This document shows, piece after piece, positions 223-26,522 of a DNA stretch of 60,127 nt (its first letter is position 1; each line of letters starts with the position of its first letter). The notes under the pieces were generated by a model. The model did no database searches and was not told the DNA's origin. It saw only the letters and a list, made by a program, of their open reading frames with translations. The position numbers and the translations under genes were made by a program. Location: positions 1-60,127 of the forward strand of contig CAZTKP010000001.1 in assembly GCA_964614215.1 (NCBI GenBank). The letters run 5' to 3'. The stretch comes from an uncultured Spirochaetales bacterium (lineage in GTDB: Bacteria; UBP6; UBA1177).

Positions 223-1587
223 TCAGATTTCGTCCGAATAGTTATCCATCGGCATAAACTTTGTGTACTGAGGAACAAATCTCAGTTTTACAATTCCCTG
301 CTGACCGTGTCTATTCTTCTGAACATAGATATTTGCAACATTATTCTTTTCACTTTCCTGCTTATAGACATCGTCCCGATGAATGAACATTACCATATCG
401 GCATCCTGTTCAATAGCTCCGGAATCCTTAAGGTCACTAAGCATCGGAATTTTTGTGGATCTGTCTTCAAGCTTTCTGTTCAGCTGGGCAAGAGCAACGA
501 TCGGGATACCCATATCCTTTGCAAACAGCTTTATGTTTCTTGAAATATCCTCGACCTGACGGACTCTATCCTCTCTGTAGACATTTGATGACATAAGCTG
601 AAGATAGTCTATCATTATGCAGTCAAGCTTCTTCTTTCTGCCCTGCTTCATCAGCTCCGAATTAAGCTTCTTTGACCTTGATCTCAGATCGGAAACTGTA
701 AGTTTTGAAGTATCATCAATATAGATAGGCAGTTTACTGAGACTGTCATAGTATTTCCACAGCCTGTCTGTTTCTCCTTCGGCAAATTTGCCTGTAAGAA
801 GATGCTTGGCGTTAATGGAACATTCTGTCGCCATGATCCTTGTTCCAAGCTGACTTCGGGGCATTTCCAGAGAAAAGATCAGAATATTACTTCCCTTTTT
901 AGCCATTTCAATGGCCATATTGAGAGCAAAACTTGTCTTTCCCATTCCCGGACGTCCTGCAAGAACGATCATGTCACCCGGCTTAAAACCACTGCACAGA
1001 TTGTCAAGATGAGGATATCCCGAAGAAATTCCCGAAATGGTCTGGTTGCTGTCAACCCTTTCCTTGAGTTTTCCCATCTCTTCTTCCACAACATCCTTTA
1101 ACGGAAACACTGTGGAAGCATGCTTTCTGTTGCTGAGATCGATCAGCTCTGTCGTTGTCTGATCAACAACTTCATCAAAACTCAGAGTCTGCCTATACGC
1201 ATTTTCAGAACTATCGGCACAGACCTTTATCATTGACCTGTAAAGAGATTTTTCAATAAGAATATCGCAGTATTCCTTCAGTATATTTTCAGAAACGACC
1301 GGAGCTTTGTTGGCAAGTTCATACAGGTATTCAATATCTGGAACTCCTGTCTTATCCTGTATCGCAGACAGCTTATCAGAAACCGTTACAACATCAGGAG
1401 TCTTTCCTTCGTCAACGATCTGCATAATAGCCCGGAAAACATGACTGTTCCTTTCTTCATAGAAATCTTCTTTATAAAGACCCGTACCTTCAACGACACT
1501 AGCCAGTTTTCCATTAATAAGAAGACACCCCAGAAGAGATGTTTCCGCTTCTAGATGTCTCGGTAGCGTAAGAGGTGTAAGATCCAT
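223..1587 (-). CDS. dnaB: replicative DNA helicase DnaB
   Basis: 454 aa. The N-terminal DnaB domain reads LPRHLEAETSLLGCLL. Walker A is AGRPGMGKTSFALNMA, followed by IMIDYLQLM and ALAQLNR motifs. Confidence 0.95.
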   Translation of the reverse strand: MDLTPLTLPRHLEAETSLLGCLLINGKLASVVEGTGLYKEDFYEERNSHVFRAIMQIVDEGKTPDVVTVSDKLSAIQDKTGVPDIEYLYELANKAPVVSENILKEYCDILIEKSLYRSMIKVCADSSENAYRQTLSFDEVVDQTTTELIDLSNRKHASTVFPLKDVVEEEMGKLKERVDSNQTISGISSGYPHLDNLCSGFKPGDMIVLAGRPGMGKTSFALNMAIEMAKKGSNILIFSLEMPRSQLGTRIMATECSINAKHLLTGKFAEGETDRLWKYYDSLSKLPIYIDDTSKLTVSDLRSRSKKLNSELMKQGRKKKLDCIMIDYLQLMSSNVYREDRVRQVEDISRNIKLFAKDMGIPIVALAQLNRKLEDRSTKIPMLSDLKDSGAIEQDADMVMFIHRDDVYKQESEKNNVANIYVQKNRHGQQGIVKLRFVPQYTKFMPMDNYSDEI

Positions 1588-1592
1588 ACAGC

Positions 1593-2183
1593 TTACTCTT
1601 CAGGCTGAGGTTCTTCGGACTCGACAGTTTCTTCTGTCTCTTCTTCTTCCGTAGTCTCAGTTTCAGGAGTATCTGCTTCTGTAGTGGTTTCAGGTTCAAT
1701 AGATTCAGCTTCCATTTCAGGAGCTACAGTTTCATCGCTATCTTCAGCAACGACCCACAGCTTAAAAACACCGCGAACTTCTCTGAAAAGCTTTACTTCA
1801 ACTTCGTATACACCGCTTTTCTTAATGTTTCCATCAAGAATTATGTTGCGATGATCTATGTCAAAGCCCTGCTCTAAAAGAGCTTCTTTGATCTCACGGG
1901 TAGTAACGCTGCCGAAAAGTTTACCTTCTTCGCCGACTTTCTTTTCGATCCTGATCTCACATTCGGCAAGTTTATTGGCAAGAGCTGTAGCAACGCCAAC
2001 TTCGGTATCAATTCTTTTTGCTATCGCTCTTTTGTTGAACTCAAGCTCCTTGACATTTTTTTCATTTGCTAAAAAGGCAAATTTCTTCGGGATAAGATAG
2101 TTACGTGCATAACCGTCCTTAACCTTTACGATATCGCCCGCGCTTCCAAGTTTTTCAACATCTTTTGTAAGTATTACCTTCAT
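1593..2183 (-). CDS. rplI: 50S ribosomal protein L9 with a long acidic C-terminal extension
   Basis: MKVILTKDVEKLGSAGDIVKVKDGYARNYLIPK is the canonical L9 N-terminus. About 45 extra C-terminal residues are rich in E, T and D. Confidence 0.95.
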   Translation of the reverse strand: MKVILTKDVEKLGSAGDIVKVKDGYARNYLIPKKFAFLANEKNVKELEFNKRAIAKRIDTEVGVATALANKLAECEIRIEKKVGEEGKLFGSVTTREIKEALLEQGFDIDHRNIILDGNIKKSGVYEVEVKLFREVRGVFKLWVVAEDSDETVAPEMEAESIEPETTTEADTPETETTEEEETEETVESEEPQPEE

Positions 2184-2192
2184 TTTCGCCCC

Positions 2193-2414
2193 CTATCTTC
2201 CAGTTACGGTAAAGGGAAGCAGAGCAATTGTTCTAGCTCTTTTAATTTCCCTGGAAAGTTCTCTCTGATGTTTTGAGCATACACCGCTTATTCTTCTGGG
2301 AATTATTTTTCCTCTTTCTGTTACGTAGTTAAGAAGAACATCCGGATTTTTGTATGAAAGTTCCATGTCGCTGTTTATGCAGAAACGACATACTTTTCTT
2401 TTCTTATAAGCCAT
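2193..2414 (-). CDS. rpsR: 30S ribosomal protein S18
   Basis: 73 aa with CRFC near the N-terminus and the [32 protein letters not shown] signature. Confidence 0.95.
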
Positions 2415-2429
2415 TTTTTACTCCTCTAA

Positions 2430-2936
2430 TTAAAGTTCCACATCCTTTTCATCGTCATCATCTTCAGCACCGTCAAGAGATTTCTGAAGCTCTTCGTTGT
2501 ACTTTCTTGAGTCTTCGATAGTCTTCTTTTCCTCTTTCTTTTCGACAGGCTTTTCCTCTTTCTTTTCAACAGGCTTTCTTTCTTCTTTCTCAAAAAGTGA
2601 AGCAACGCCTTTTGCATTTTCTTCAAGTTCTGCGATATCTTCAGCCTTGTCAACAACGATGGTCATGTACTTGAGAACACCTTCCCAGATGTTAAAGTTT
2701 CTCTCAAGCTCATCAACAAGTTCGCCGTTACCGACCAGATCAAAGAAAAGGTAATGACCCTTAAGGTTCTTTTTAATTTCGTAGGCGAGTTTTCTTTCGC
2801 CCCAGGATGCAAGATTAATTACTTTGCCGTTGTAATCATTGATAATTCCATCAACTCTTTCAACGAACTGCCTGATAGCTTCGTTTCCACCTTCAGGCTT
2901 AAGAATGGTAGTAAGCTCGTAATGTCTTTTTTTCAT
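2430..2936 (-). CDS. rpsF: 30S ribosomal protein S6 with a charged/acidic C-terminal extension
   Basis: MKKRHYELTTILKP and WGERKLAYEIKK are S6 motifs. The tail has repeated PVEKKEEK units and ends in DDDDEKDVEL. Confidence 0.93.
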   Translation of the reverse strand: MKKRHYELTTILKPEGGNEAIRQFVERVDGIINDYNGKVINLASWGERKLAYEIKKNLKGHYLFFDLVGNGELVDELERNFNIWEGVLKYMTIVVDKAEDIAELEENAKGVASLFEKEERKPVEKKEEKPVEKKEEKKTIEDSRKYNEELQKSLDGAEDDDDEKDVEL

Positions 2937-24270: not shown

Positions 24271-24950
24271 GCTTGAGGCTCTTTCTTTTCACATTAGTTT
24301 TCCTATCATCTTTCTCTATTTACGCACAGTTTACCGTATTTATCGATCCGGGACACGGTGGAAACAATAAGGGAGCTATTGCCGGAGGTATCGAAGAAAA
24401 GGATGTAACTCTCGAGCTTGCTCTGAAGTTGAAAGCTTTTTTTAAAAAACATCCTGATCCTGATATTAAAGTAATATTCTCAAGAACATCTGACGAAGAC
24501 CTTCTGATAAAAAAAAGAGTTGAGAAGATCGAAAAGGAAAAACCGGACCTGTTTCTTTCCCTTCACTTCAATTCACAGAAATTTCTTACAACGACAAGGG
24601 GTTTCGAGATCTATTATCCGGCAGATTCTCTCGATGGAAAATCAAAAGAAATGGCTGAAAAATATGACCGGGCAAACAGGTCTTTCGTTTATGGAAAAAT
24701 GTTTAAGGACCTTTATTTTAAAGCCAACATCCACACAACGTGGAAACTGCCCTTCAATCTTTTCACTCAGAAATACGGTCTGAAACTTTTTGAAGAAACA
24801 ACGGTACCCGGACTACTTCTAGAAATAGCCTATCTGACCTCACCGGATGACAGAGCGTGCGTCGAGAACAAAGATTTTATGGCTGATATCGCCTGGTATA
24901 TCTATGATGCGATCAAGAAAATATCTAAGAAAAAACTGAAAAAGAAGTAG
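24267..24950 (+). CDS. N-acetylmuramoyl-L-alanine amidase (Amidase_3 type), secreted
   Basis: Signal peptide, then VFIDPGHGGNNKGA, EKDVTLELALKL and LFLSLHFNS. Confidence 0.85.
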   Translation: MSLRLFLFTLVFLSSFSIYAQFTVFIDPGHGGNNKGAIAGGIEEKDVTLELALKLKAFFKKHPDPDIKVIFSRTSDEDLLIKKRVEKIEKEKPDLFLSLHFNSQKFLTTTRGFEIYYPADSLDGKSKEMAEKYDRANRSFVYGKMFKDLYFKANIHTTWKLPFNLFTQKYGLKLFEETTVPGLLLEIAYLTSPDDRACVENKDFMADIAWYIYDAIKKISKKKLKKK

Positions 24951-25889
24951 TTATCTAAATATTCTGCTGAATCTTGAGTTGAAAATCTCAATATATTTAT
25001 CTTTTAGTTCATTATTTAAGAATGAATCCGATATTTGGTTAACCATATTTTCACGTCTTTTTGCAAACTTTTCATATATCCCCATGACAACCTTGCTTTG
25101 GATCTGAAAATTTTCAGCTAAGAAGTCGAAGTCTTCTTTTTCTAACCTTGCCTTCTTTCCATTTATCGAAAGTGCAGACTCTTCTTTATCTTCAGGAATA
25201 GCAATTGCCGTATTTAGTAGATCATAAGCCGGAGATAGCTCAAAAAAATCAGTAGAACTGTAAAAAAGCGAATAATTTTTCAGGTGCATGTCTGCATTTC
25301 CTGAAAGAAAGGAAAAAAGAACGACTTCAAAAAGTCTCTGAAGATCATAGCCAGGGTTTGAAGAGTATTTTTTCAGTGTTTTTCCAATTTGCTCAACCGA
25401 TCCTCTGTACTTGTCTTCTGTGAGTCTCTCCTGAAGCTGACACATATCTTCCATATGTTTTTTTCCGCTTTTAGTTCTATCAATCCTCTTTGAGATATAG
25501 GCAAGCTCTCCGCTTTTAAACCTGACCATTCCATAGGGAACCGTTTTTATTCCAAAAGTCTGAGCCAAACTCATTGTAAGGTGTTCATTTTCAGGAAGAA
25601 ATGGATATTTTTCTGAAGGCGGTTTTAAAATATAACCTCCCCAGAGTCCGACAATCGTAAATTTACTGTTTCTTTCTCCTCTTACTTTTGACAAGTGAAG
25701 TGAAAGCTTCGGCTGAACACCCGTTACCGAAATACTTTTCAGTACAGAATCTTTTGCAATCTCATTTAGTTCATCAAGATCATAGTCAAGACCCGGGGCT
25801 TTGTCCGAATTAAAAAATTTCCGGCTGCATGAAGAGTGATACTCCTCTTTTCCGGCAACTTCATTGCCGCAGATGAGGCATCTAGTCAT
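24951..25889 (-). CDS. HipA-family serine/threonine kinase toxin lacking N-subdomain 1 (HipT-like)
   Basis: 312 aa. P-loop region KSISVTGVQPKLS. Catalytic GNADMHLKNYSL. Mg-binding SPAYDLLNT. N-terminal CxxC...H..C (CLICGNEV...YHSSC). Confidence 0.85.
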   Translation of the reverse strand: MTRCLICGNEVAGKEEYHSSCSRKFFNSDKAPGLDYDLDELNEIAKDSVLKSISVTGVQPKLSLHLSKVRGERNSKFTIVGLWGGYILKPPSEKYPFLPENEHLTMSLAQTFGIKTVPYGMVRFKSGELAYISKRIDRTKSGKKHMEDMCQLQERLTEDKYRGSVEQIGKTLKKYSSNPGYDLQRLFEVVLFSFLSGNADMHLKNYSLFYSSTDFFELSPAYDLLNTAIAIPEDKEESALSINGKKARLEKEDFDFLAENFQIQSKVVMGIYEKFAKRRENMVNQISDSFLNNELKDKYIEIFNSRFSRIFR

Positions 25890-26214
25890 TTTTTTCCCTC
25901 CTCACAGAAACAGCTCCAATGGTGTCACTACAGCACGAAAGCAGCAGCTCCATTCTATCTCTTGAGTCAATTTTCCAGCTCTTCCATGCAATATCAAGCA
26001 GCCATCCTTCCGGAATAAGACCATCAAAAAATGGAAATAATATTTTTGATTCGTATGACTCTTTTCTAAGAGGAAGTGTTTTGCTTACTGCAACAGGATC
26101 TGAAGCCAAAAGATATTCCGGATCATAGGTGAAAACATACCCTGAATCAGTTTGTTCAACAATTCCGGCAAATCTGTCATACATGTAGACATATCCATAT
26201 TTTTTTATCATCAT
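25882..26214 (-). CDS. HipA N-terminal subdomain protein (HipS-like)
   Basis: 110 aa with motifs FAGIVEQTDSGYVFTYDPEYL, FPFFDGLIPEGW and DTIGAVSV, typical of the HipA N-terminal domain. It overlaps the kinase gene by 8 nt and the HTH gene by 4 nt. Confidence 0.8.
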   Translation of the reverse strand: MMIKKYGYVYMYDRFAGIVEQTDSGYVFTYDPEYLLASDPVAVSKTLPLRKESYESKILFPFFDGLIPEGWLLDIAWKSWKIDSRDRMELLLSCCSDTIGAVSVRREKND

Positions 26215-26420
26215 GAACCTCTCTCAGTTTTTCCAGGAATCATTTCATGCCCGAACAGAAGAAGAACCTGATTGATCTTATCAAGCCTGAGCGTATCTTT
26301 ACCCTGCTCCAGCTCTCTAATAAACCTTAAACCTACTCCGCTTCTTTGTGCAAGCTCAACCTGTGTAATACCTAACTTTTTTCTTCTTTCTTTAACAAAA
26401 ACCCTTAACTTATCGCTCAT
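26211..26420 (-). CDS. hipB: XRE-family HTH protein (HipB-like)
   Basis: 69 aa. RRKKLGITQVELAQRSGVGLRFIRELEQGK is a Cro/C1-type HTH. It is the first gene of the three-gene cassette. Confidence 0.85.
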   Translation of the reverse strand: MSDKLRVFVKERRKKLGITQVELAQRSGVGLRFIRELEQGKDTLRLDKINQVLLLFGHEMIPGKTERGS

Positions 26421-26422
26421 TC

Positions 26423-26522
26423 TATACCTCTTCGGGTATAATTTATAACTATCAACGTAATTTTACACCCTTTCGGGTATATTTGTCAAGTTGTTTTTAT
26501 TTTTTACACCCGTTAGGGTATA
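26423..26522 (-). promoter_or_regulatory. hip cassette promoter with three phased palindromic operators
   Basis: TATACCtcttcGGGTATA at 26423-26440, TACACCCtttcGGGTATA at 26464-26481 and TACACCCgttaGGGTATA at 26505-26522, with 41 bp between starts. On the minus strand, TTGACA (26489-26484), an 18-nt spacer, then TAAAAT (26465-26460). The promoter brackets the middle operator. Confidence 0.65.

What the first reader, a model, noticed from the sequence alone, without database searches (positions are those of the whole stretch)
24951..26420. Tripartite HipB / HipS-like / HipT-like (split HipA) toxin-antitoxin cassette inserted between the amidase gene and pyrE
Three overlapping minus-strand genes have junctions of 4 nt and 8 nt. 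They encode:
- a 69-aa XRE HTH protein
- a 110-aa protein matching the HipA N-terminal subdomain (FPFFDGLIPEGW, DTIGAVSV)
- a 312-aa HipA-core kinase (GNADMHLKNYSL, SPAYDLLNT)

This is the HipBST architecture known from E. coli O127:H6 and Legionella. There HipT phosphorylates TrpS, and the small HipS, not the HTH protein, is the antitoxin.

The kinase here even has an S-I-S triplet in the Gly-rich loop (KSISVTGVQPK, Ser52 and Ser54). This resembles the autophosphorylated SIS motif of HipT. It additionally carries an N-terminal CxxC...HxxC element.

The cassette abuts the amidase stop with no spacer. It is the only clearly selfish module in the window.
Basis: partly seen in the sequence, partly recalled or inferred. 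Interest (0 to 1): 0.6.

Follow-up and report, generated by a model that had tools for sequence, protein, structure and literature searches.

The report
Ordinary Legionella-type HipBST toxin-antitoxin cassette
This is an intact three-gene HipB-HipS-HipT kinase toxin-antitoxin operon of a type already described and very common in environmental bacteria, so the call is correct but ordinary, with a few small undescribed details.

Summary
Three overlapping minus-strand genes (4-nt and 8-nt overlaps) encode:
- a 69-aa HTH protein (HipB)
- a 110-aa HipA N-subdomain-1 protein (HipS)
- a 312-aa HipA-core kinase (HipT)

All three match the solved Legionella pneumophila HipBST proteins best. HipT gives E 1e-51 and model TM 0.90. 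HipS gives TM 0.81-0.89. All kinase motifs are intact. 87 of 89 related loci are tripartite, so the split is not a frameshift artefact.

- The E. coli S57-I-S59 motif aligns to S54-V55-T56 here, not to S52-I-S54.
- The nearest characterised relative, HipT(Lp), does not act through TrpS or GltX, so the target is unknown.
- Amidase and pyrE are not neighbours in other genera, so a simple insertion cannot be shown. The cassette sits at this exact locus in a relative with 79% HipT identity and is under purifying selection.

The N-terminal C-x2-C...H-x2-C is invariant across the clade and is lost in the two solved HipTs. Three unique 18-bp palindromes spaced 41 bp apart overlie the promoter, and the array is clade-wide.

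This scan has reported the same system type on much other DNA (242 notes), including the Cys2-His-Cys motif.

The parts
26505..26522 (-). Operator-like palindrome O3 (TATACCCTAACGGGTGTA), upstream of the -35 hexamer
   Evidence: 0 mismatches; 0.02 matches expected by chance in the window; perfect matches in the 2.83-Mb genome occur only at this promoter
26464..26481 (-). Operator-like palindrome O2 (TATACCCGAAAGGGTGTA), lying between the -35 and -10 hexamers
26423..26440 (-). Operator-like palindrome O1 (TATACCCGAAGAGGTATA), ending 2 nt before the hipB ATG
   Evidence: The spacing O3-O2-O1 is exactly 41 bp. The same three-site array is kept in L027 and in most of 87 related loci.
26460..26489 (-). 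Sigma-70-like promoter: TTGACA, 18-nt spacer, TAAAAT (11 of 12 matches)
   Evidence: The TTGACA is conserved in L027. This is a consensus match only; no transcript data are available.
26211..26420 (-). hipB: 69-aa XRE-type HTH protein, the presumed operator-binding autorepressor
   Evidence: HTH_3 6.8e-9. TIGR03070 couple_hipB 4.8e-22, above its cut-off. The best solved relative is HipB(Lp) 8ezt, E 1.8e-5. It has no C-terminal Trp.
25882..26214 (-). hipS: 110-aa HipA N-subdomain-1 protein, the presumed antitoxin. E69 and W71 (codon 26002-26004) correspond to E. coli HipS E63 and W65.
   Evidence: Couple_hipA 2.3e-24. PDB hits: HI_0666 3e-15, HipS(Lp) 8.7e-14, HipS(Ec) 5.6e-10. AF2 model pLDDT 87. 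TM 0.81-0.89 to HipS(Ec) and HipS(Lp), and TMq 0.78-0.80 to the HipA N-subdomain. W71 is invariant in 45 clade HipS sequences.
24951..25889 (-). hipT: 312-aa HipA-core Ser/Thr kinase, the presumed toxin
   Evidence: HipA_C 5.8e-45. HipT(Lp) E 1.4e-51 and HipT(Ec) E 1.2e-17. AF2 model pLDDT 92. TM 0.90 to 7wcf and 0.84 to 7ab4.
25827..25880 (-). Codons 4-21 of hipT: the C4-x2-C7-x10-H18-x2-C21 motif in the N-terminal mini-domain, a probable zinc site
   Evidence: All four residues are invariant in 59 homologues. The motif is present in 117 of 120 close hits and 117 of 150 50%-cluster representatives; most of the rest are N-terminal fragments. The model shows a beta-hairpin followed by a helix starting at residue 19, at pLDDT above 90. 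HipT(Lp) keeps only C4.
25707..25736 (-). Codons 52-61 of hipT: Gly-rich loop S52-I-S54-V-T56-G-V-Q-P-K61. S54 matches Lp S54 and Ec S57; T56 matches Ec S59.
   Evidence: This is the lowest-confidence stretch of the model (residues 52-56, pLDDT below 50).
25221..25301 (-). Codons 197-223 of hipT: catalytic loop GNADMHLKN (D200) and Mg-binding motif SPAYD223LL
   Evidence: (N198, D200, H202, K204 and N205 invariant; D223 in 58 of 59)

Best explanation
The region is a complete, selectively maintained hipBST operon of the Legionella-type (HipBST-Lp) subclade.

Shown by sequence and fold:
- HipT is a HipA-core Ser/Thr kinase with all four kinase motifs intact: K61, R135-x-D137-R138, D200 and D223.
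- HipS is the detached HipA N-subdomain 1.
- HipB is a minimal XRE HTH protein.
- The three genes overlap, which permits translational coupling.
- Three unique 18-bp palindromes at 41-bp phasing cover a sigma-70-like promoter.

Inferred by homology to the E. coli O127 and L. pneumophila systems:
- Free HipT phosphorylates an essential translation-related protein and arrests growth. The target is probably an aminoacyl-tRNA synthetase, but its identity is unknown.
- HipS binds HipT as a lid and holds the Gly-rich loop in the ejected, inactive state. Here it probably does so with the invariant Trp71, as E. coli HipS does with Trp65.
- Dimeric HipB binds the three operators and represses the operon. 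It bridges HipS-HipT units but does not itself neutralise the toxin.
- S54 and T56 are the likely autophosphorylation sites.
- The invariant Cys2-His-Cys in the N-terminal mini-domain most likely holds a structural zinc ion.
For: - ORFs and overlaps.
- Domain and family hits above curated cut-offs.
- Best solved relatives are HipT(Lp), HipS(Lp)/HI_0666 and HipB(Lp). A profile of the clade matches HipT(Lp) end to end at E 2.4e-77.
- Folds: HipT TM 0.90 to 7wcf. HipS TM 0.81-0.89 to HipS chains.
- Catalytic residues are invariant.
- HipS W71 and E69 are invariant in 45 sequences.
- 87 of 89 related loci have the hipB-hipS-hipT order.
- The same locus is found in independent assemblies L026 and L027.
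- Purifying selection against L027: pN 0.10-0.14 against pS 0.63-0.74 in all three genes.
- Operators: 6 strand-matches at 3 sites against 0.02 expected. Perfect matches in the genome occur only here. The 40-41-bp array is conserved in L027 and in most related loci from many phyla.
- Literature for the mechanism: PMC6581861, PMC10627512, PMC9325769 and PMC10653801.
Against: - No experiment exists for this locus or any close relative. Toxicity, neutralisation by HipS, DNA binding by HipB and zinc binding are all inferred.
- The two characterised systems differ from each other in target, in dependence on the HipS Trp and in the role of autophosphorylation. This cassette mixes features of both: Lp-like overall sequence, but an E. 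coli-like HipS Trp and a two-site Ser/Thr loop. Details cannot be transferred safely.
- Long vertical retention at one chromosomal site under purifying selection is also what a domesticated, non-toxic regulatory kinase would show.
- dS is saturated, so the dN/dS values are only rough.
Confidence: 0.88

Rival explanations
1. A domesticated, non-toxic signalling module. The kinase and its lid have been kept as a chromosomal regulatory kinase, for example for stress-dependent control of translation, and no longer behave as an addictive toxin-antitoxin pair.
For: - The cassette is fixed at the same chromosomal position in lineages whose synonymous sites are saturated. pN is comparable to that of the neighbouring amidase.
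- No integrase, transposase or repeats flank it.
- GC content is not distinct from the flanks.
Against: - Distribution is patchy among family members, and the genomic contexts are unrelated in other genera. That is typical of mobile TA modules.
- The full antitoxin and repressor apparatus and the operator array are retained.
- Every characterised HipT is toxic (PMC6581861, PMC10653801).
- Chromosomal TA modules are also kept by addiction, so retention does not discriminate.
Confidence: 0.07
2. The split is an artefact or a recent pseudogenisation. A single hipA gene has been broken by a frameshift or sequencing error into a 110-aa and a 312-aa piece.
For: - HipS-HipT fusions of 408-461 aa do exist among distant members of the clade: 16 of 150 representatives at 38-45% identity.
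Against: - The same split occurs in two independent assemblies and in 87 of 89 related loci.
- Both pieces are under purifying selection.
- hipT has its own ATG and the conserved N-terminal mini-domain.
- Stop-start overlaps are typical of coupled genes.
- The solved HipBST systems have the same split.
Confidence: 0.01
3. The physiological role is abortive-infection phage defence rather than persistence or addiction. Phage infection releases HipT from HipS and halts translation.
For: - Weak matches to the PADLOC candidate system PDC-M03A/B: E 1e-6 and 1e-3.
- The genome holds five HipA-family loci, a redundancy often seen for defence genes.
- TA kinases of the Hip family have been proposed as defence candidates; this rests on my own general knowledge, not on a paper read here.
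Against: - The PADLOC matches are far too weak for membership.
- The neighbours are housekeeping genes (parAB, amidase, pyrE, icd), not a defence island.
- No phage data exist for an uncultured host.
- This reading concerns the role, not the mechanism, and is compatible with the best explanation.
Confidence: 0.04

Closest known systems
HipBST(Lp) of Legionella pneumophila (Lpg2368-Lpg2369-Lpg2370; PDB 7vkb, 7vkc, 7wcf, 8ezr, 8ezs, 8ezt; PMC9325769, PMC10653801)
   Same: - Gene order hipB-hipS-hipT.
- It is the best solved relative of HipT and HipB, and the second-best by sequence of HipS, behind H. influenzae HI_0666. HipT: 37-41% identity, E 1e-51, TM 0.90.
- S54 sits at the same position as the Lp autophosphorylation site.
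- The RxDR motif is present.
- There are three evenly spaced inverted-repeat operators upstream of hipB.
- The subclade is reported as widespread in the FCB superphylum.
   Different: - HipT(Lp) has only C4 of the Cys2-His-Cys motif.
- The Lp loop is S-V-Q (one site); here it is S-V-T (two possible sites).
- HipS(Lp) has I65/M66 where this HipS has the invariant Trp71.
- The Lp operators are separated by 53-bp gaps; here the start-to-start period is 41 bp.
- Lpg2370 is also described as a Legionella effector (PMC9325769). Nothing here suggests that.
HipBST of E. coli O127:H6 (PDB 7ab3-7ab5; PMC6581861, PMC10627512)
   Same: - Tripartite architecture.
- HipS Glu and Trp (E63/W65) are conserved as E69/W71.
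- There are two hydroxyl residues flanking an aliphatic residue in the Gly-rich loop.
- HipT has an N-terminal mini-domain.
- HipB lacks the C-terminal Trp used by HipB of hipBA.
   Different: - Only about 22% identity to HipT(Ec) (E 1e-17, TM 0.84).
- HipB here is 69 aa.
- TrpS as the target cannot be assumed.
Canonical HipBA (E. coli K-12 HipA/HipB; PDB 3dnt, 2wiu, 4yg7)
   Same: - Same kinase fold and catalytic motifs.
- HipS superposes on HipA N-subdomain 1 (TMq 0.78-0.80).
- An HTH repressor acts on multiple palindromic operators.
   Different: - In HipBA the kinase is one chain and HipB is the antitoxin.
- The target of HipA is GltX.
- A canonical hipBA of this kind exists elsewhere in the same genome (contig C51).

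Membership tests
HipBST tripartite toxin-antitoxin systems | Three co-directional, tightly linked genes in the order HTH gene, HipS gene, HipT gene | tested here: met
   Overlaps of 4 and 8 nt. The same order is found in 87 of 89 related loci.
HipBST tripartite toxin-antitoxin systems | HipS is homologous in sequence and fold to HipA N-subdomain 1 | tested here: met
   Couple_hipA 86 bits and TIGR03071 93 bits. PDB HipS chains at E 1e-10 to 3e-15. TM 0.81-0.89.
HipBST tripartite toxin-antitoxin systems | HipT is a HipA core kinase that lacks N-subdomain 1 and keeps the Gly-rich loop, activation (RxDR) motif, catalytic motif and Mg-binding motif | tested here: met
HipBST tripartite toxin-antitoxin systems | HipB is an HTH protein of the HipB / Y4mF type | tested here: met
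   TIGR03070 77.7 bits against a cut-off of 71.65. The best solved hit is HipB(Lp).
HipBST tripartite toxin-antitoxin systems | HipT is toxic, and HipS, not HipB, neutralises it | not testable with these tools
   Inferred only from homology. The HipS Trp71/Glu69 contact residues are conserved.
HipBST tripartite toxin-antitoxin systems | HipB autoregulates the operon through upstream inverted repeats | tested here: inconclusive
   Three unique palindromes overlap a promoter-like site and are conserved across the clade. Binding itself was not tested.
E. coli-type HipBST subclade (S-psi-S group, TrpS-targeting) | An S-psi-S double-serine motif at the positions of S57/S59 | tested here: not met
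   The aligned residues are S54-V55-T56. The S52-I53-S54 triplet is out of register by two. The clade consensus is A/S/T-V-T.
E. coli-type HipBST subclade (S-psi-S group, TrpS-targeting) | Phosphorylates TrpS | not testable with these tools
   The closer relative HipT(Lp) is not rescued by TrpS or GltX (PMC10653801).
Legionella-type HipBST subclade | Closer in sequence to HipBST(Lp) than to HipBST(Ec) or HipBA | tested here: met
   HipT: 179 bits to Lp, 68 bits to Ec and 43 bits or less to HipA. Profile search: 263 against 111 bits.
Legionella-type HipBST subclade | S-psi-Q loop and HipS without the wedge Trp, as in Legionella species | tested here: not met
   The loop is S-V-T and HipS has W71. 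These are traits of the Legionella branch, not of the wider subclade.

The most novel reading that the evidence does not exclude
The invariant Cys2-His-Cys knuckle in the HipT N-terminal mini-domain may be more than a structural staple. It could be a regulatory element: a zinc- or redox-sensitive switch placed about 30 residues before the Gly-rich loop. Such a switch could control loop ejection, HipS binding, or docking of HipB or the substrate. The mini-domain is 'of unknown significance' in E. coli HipT. It becomes disordered when HipS binds HipT(Lp). Both solved proteins have lost the ligands, so the ancestral, majority form of HipT has never been examined.
Probability: 0.12. Interest if true: 0.5.

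Novelty: new member of a known kind. Interest (0 to 1): 0.2.

Why it matters
As a gene call it adds nothing new. HipBST(Lp)-type operons are already reported as widespread in the FCB superphylum. The clade comprises hundreds of 50%-identity clusters (359 at E<=1e-30), and the scan has flagged the type many times.

Two details are useful for people working on Hip kinases.

1. The majority form of HipT carries an invariant Cys2-His-Cys motif in the mini-domain. Both crystallised representatives lack it, and I found no paper in the searched library that mentions it.

2. This branch combines an Lp-like kinase with the E. coli-type HipS tryptophan and a two-site Ser/Thr loop. It also has a highly regular array of three to four operators at a 40-41-bp period, conserved across phyla. 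A member such as this one would be a better model than Legionella for the typical HipBST.

Tried and rejected
- Frameshift or assembly artefact: rejected. Independent assemblies and 87 of 89 tripartite relatives agree.
- Simple insertion into a conserved amidase-pyrE junction: not demonstrable. The two genes are unlinked in the 30-odd relatives that have both. In genus g2 the amidase is followed by a response-regulator gene and pyrE by other genes.
- Compositional signal of recent transfer: none seen (GC 0.35-0.41 against 0.38-0.45 in the flanks).
- Searching the PDB with the N-terminal 63 residues alone: no meaningful hit. A clade profile was needed to align the HipT(Lp) N-terminus.
- Rfam scan of the window: only one tRNA, nothing near the cassette.
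- PADLOC: only weak matches to candidate system PDC-M03, not membership.
- Naming the organism: cluster look-up and an Icd search returned only 'bacterium' MAG labels. The lineage was left undetermined.
- Atomic distances between the four putative zinc ligands could not be measured, because model coordinates are not exposed.
- The claim that this is the only selfish module in the window was not tested.
Full report
**1. Observation**

The six-frame ORF list and the sequence show three minus-strand ORFs exactly as reported:
- hipB, 26211-26420 (69 aa)
- hipS, 25882-26214 (110 aa)
- hipT, 24951-25889 (312 aa)

The stop/start overlaps are 4 nt (ATGA) and 8 nt. The hipT stop codon (24953-24951) touches the stop codon of the convergent Amidase_3 gene (24948-24950). 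pyrE ends 115 bp upstream of hipB. All quoted peptide motifs are present.

**2. Identity of the three proteins**

- Pfam: HipA_C for the 312-aa protein (E 5.8e-45), Couple_hipA for the 110-aa protein (2.3e-24) and HTH_3 for the 69-aa protein (6.8e-9).
- NCBIfam: the HTH protein scores above the cut-off of TIGR03070 (couple_hipB / Y4mF antitoxin subfamily). The 110-aa protein falls in TIGR03071 (couple_hipA).
- Solved structures, kinase: HipT(Lp) of Legionella pneumophila at E 1.4e-51, E. coli O127 HipT at 1.2e-17 and the HipA proteins at 1e-10 or worse.
- Solved structures, small protein: H. influenzae HI_0666 (3e-15), HipS(Lp) (8.7e-14), HipS(Ec) (5.6e-10) and the N-terminus of HipA (8e-7).
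- Solved structures, HTH protein: the best match is HipB(Lp).
- HipT model: an AlphaFold2 model built on 59 homologues has mean pLDDT 92. It superposes on HipT(Lp)-AMPPNP with TM 0.90 and on E. coli HipT with TM 0.84.
- HipS model: pLDDT 87. It superposes on HipS(Ec) and HipS(Lp) with TM 0.81-0.89 and on HipA N-subdomain 1 with TMq 0.78-0.80.

HipS is N-subdomain 1, and the kinase has every catalytic residue: K61, R135-x-D137-R138, N198/D200/H202/K204/N205 and D223.

**3. Is the split real?**

- An exact-sequence look-up found a 99%-identical HipT on an independent metagenome scaffold with the same neighbours: pyrE, hipB, hipS, hipT, then the convergent amidase, parB and parA (L026).
- A 79%-identical HipT sits on a 52.9-kb contig from another sample, again with icd-pyrE on one side and amidase-parB-parA-purD-purH on the other (L027).
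- Across 89 related loci from the window's relatives and from named genomes of many phyla, 87 have hipB-hipS-hipT. One exception is cut by a contig end and one seems to lack hipS.
- Fused HipS-HipT proteins of 408-461 aa do exist, but only among distant representatives at 38-45% identity (16 of 150).
- Between the window and L027 all three genes show pN 0.10-0.14 against pS 0.63-0.74. That is strong purifying selection, although dS is saturated.

**4. Genomic setting**

HipT relatives are patchy among the 40 relatives searched: 21 have some match, but only a few have an orthologue at 66-67% identity. Those orthologues sit in other contexts with no amidase or pyrE nearby.

The amidase and pyrE are each present in nearly all family members, but never together. 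In G004 they are about 258 kb apart and in G028 about 283 kb apart. Elsewhere they lie on different contigs.

Synteny is kept up to the amidase (purD ... parA-parB-amidase) and for pyrE-icd, then breaks. The cassette therefore lies at a lineage-specific rearrangement junction. It cannot be shown to be an insertion into a pre-existing amidase-pyrE joint. Once there, it has been inherited vertically.

No mobile-element genes flank it, and the GC content is unremarkable.

**5. Which subclade, and what that implies**

Sequence places the cassette in the HipBST(Lp) subclade. Lin et al. (PMC10653801) report that subclade as widely distributed, especially in the Fibrobacterota-Chlorobiota-Bacteroidota superphylum. 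My searches agree:
- More than 8000 candidates in the 90% clusters, with named hits from Bacteroidota, Cloacimonadota, Chlorobiota, KSB1 and others.
- 359 50%-identity clusters at E<=1e-30.

For HipT(Lp), neither TrpS nor GltX rescues toxicity, and the target is unknown.

**6. Gly-rich loop**

Alignment to the E. coli crystal constructs settles the register. In the S59A construct the loop reads ...GMSIAGYQPK..., and in the S57A construct it reads ...GMAISGYQPK.... These align to the query ...SISVTGVQPK.... So Ec S57 matches S54, I58 matches V55 and S59 matches T56. Lp S54 also matches S54.

The conspicuous S52-I53-S54 triplet is two residues out of register. The motif belongs to the (S/T)-psi-T group listed by Baerentsen et al. 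(PMC10627512).

In the clade:
- Position 54 is Ala in most sequences (A-x-T in 88 of 120).
- Position 56 is Thr in about 90%.
- S52 is conserved in 51 of 59.

This gene is in the minority that keeps both hydroxyl positions.

**7. HipS wedge**

E. coli HipS neutralises HipT by inserting Trp65 next to the ejected Gly-rich loop. HipS(Lp) has Ile/Met there and does not depend on it. Here the FFDGLIPEGWL block, including E69 and W71, is invariant in 45 clade HipS sequences. I therefore expect an E. coli-like wedge in an otherwise Lp-like system. This is an inference.

**8. N-terminal Cys/His element**

C4, C7, H18 and C21 are invariant in 59 homologues at 50-79% identity. The pattern C-x2-C-x(6-18)-[HC]-x2-C occurs as follows:
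- In 117 of 120 close hits. The three exceptions are N-terminally aberrant.
- In 117 of 150 50%-cluster representatives down to 37% identity. Most of the rest are fragments that lack the N-terminus.

In the model this stretch is confident (pLDDT 91-94). It forms a short beta-hairpin followed by a helix that begins at residue 19. That is the usual geometry of a zinc knuckle followed by a helix-N-terminal ligand pair.

A clade profile aligns HipT(Lp) from residue 1 and shows MKHCPITYEKISD-QENYSQRG. Only the first Cys is kept.

The mini-domain is called 'of unknown significance' for E. coli HipT. It is disordered in the HipS-HipT(Lp) complex.

The four HipBST papers consulted here do not describe such a site; the only 'zinc' in them is in a reference title. 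A library search for HipT plus zinc found nothing relevant.

**9. Regulatory region**

The 115-bp spacer holds three 18-bp palindromes (TAYACCC-N4-RGGTRTA) at 26423, 26464 and 26505. They are spaced exactly 41 bp apart.
- Chance expectation in the window is 0.02 matches.
- In the whole 2.83-Mb assembly, perfect matches occur only here.
- The middle site lies between a TTGACA and a TAAAAT separated by 18 nt.
- The proximal site ends 2 nt before the hipB ATG.
- The array is preserved in L027 despite saturated synonymous divergence.
- An ACCC-N4-GGGT core with a 40-41-bp period recurs three or four times upstream of hipB in most of the 87 loci from many phyla.

Lin et al. showed that HipB(Lp) binds three evenly spaced 18-nt inverted-repeat operators separated by 53-bp gaps. 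The principle is the same here, but the period is shorter.

**10. Verdict**

This is a correct identification of a known system: a new member of the HipBST(Lp)-type subclade, intact and under selection. The interpretive extras are either out of register (SIS), not transferable (TrpS), not demonstrable (insertion), or clade-wide rather than special (Cys/His motif).

Interest is low. The residual novelty is the uncharacterised, probably zinc-binding mini-domain and the mosaic of E. coli-like and Legionella-like features.

Noticed in passing
L004 (own genome, contig C57:1175-4864), ORFs 2677-2874, 2357-2680, 1375-2445, all minus strand: A second, divergent hipBST-like cassette in the same genome: a 65-aa HTH protein, a 107-aa HipS and a HipT of roughly 320-356 aa at 32-36% identity. 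Its kinase has a Cys4 version of the N-terminal motif (C-x2-C...C-x2-C) and a true E. coli-like S-I-S-G-Y-Q loop. Its HipS has Asn where this one has Trp71. Its upstream repeats are different (TTGTGATTTTGC, twice).
   Followed up: partly
L002 (own genome, contig C51:4148-7891), ORFs 2714-2965 and 1390-2712, minus strand; operator-like site at C51:7158-7175: A canonical two-gene hipBA: an 83-aa HipB ending in Trp and a 440-aa HipA. A one-mismatch copy of the window's operator pattern (TATACCCTGGGAGGTATT) lies about 45 nt upstream of that hipB. In total the genome has five HipA_C matches.
   Followed up: partly
Proteins P0264, P0280, P0296, P0306, P0312, P0318, P0332 and others: Sixteen of 150 clade representatives are single-chain HipS-HipT fusions of 408-461 aa. 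Most keep the Cys2-His-Cys mini-domain between the HipS part and the kinase core, as a natural linker.
   Followed up: partly
Proteins P0372, P0374, P0385, P0391: HipT-like kinases of about 625-630 aa with a conserved C-terminal extension of about 320 aa. The extension contains a D...ECKRP block, which is reminiscent of PD-(D/E)xK nucleases.
   Followed up: no
window 24948-24953 and 24730-24744: hipT and the amidase gene converge with their stop codons touching, so there is no room for a terminator between them. The only terminator-like hairpin for the minus strand lies inside the amidase coding region, so transcripts of the two genes probably overlap in antisense. In L027 the spacer is 16 bp.
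   Followed up: no
L016 and L017 (relatives G006, G001), downstream of the amidase gene: In the sister genus the parA-parB-amidase string continues into a 460-aa response regulator and a 658-aa membrane protein, not into hipBST and pyrE. This marks a synteny break at the cassette.
   Followed up: partly
L063 (uncultured Paludibacter MAG), 1018-2294: This is the only complete related locus where hipB (1018-1248) is followed directly by hipT (1308-2294), with no detectable hipS between them.
   Followed up: no
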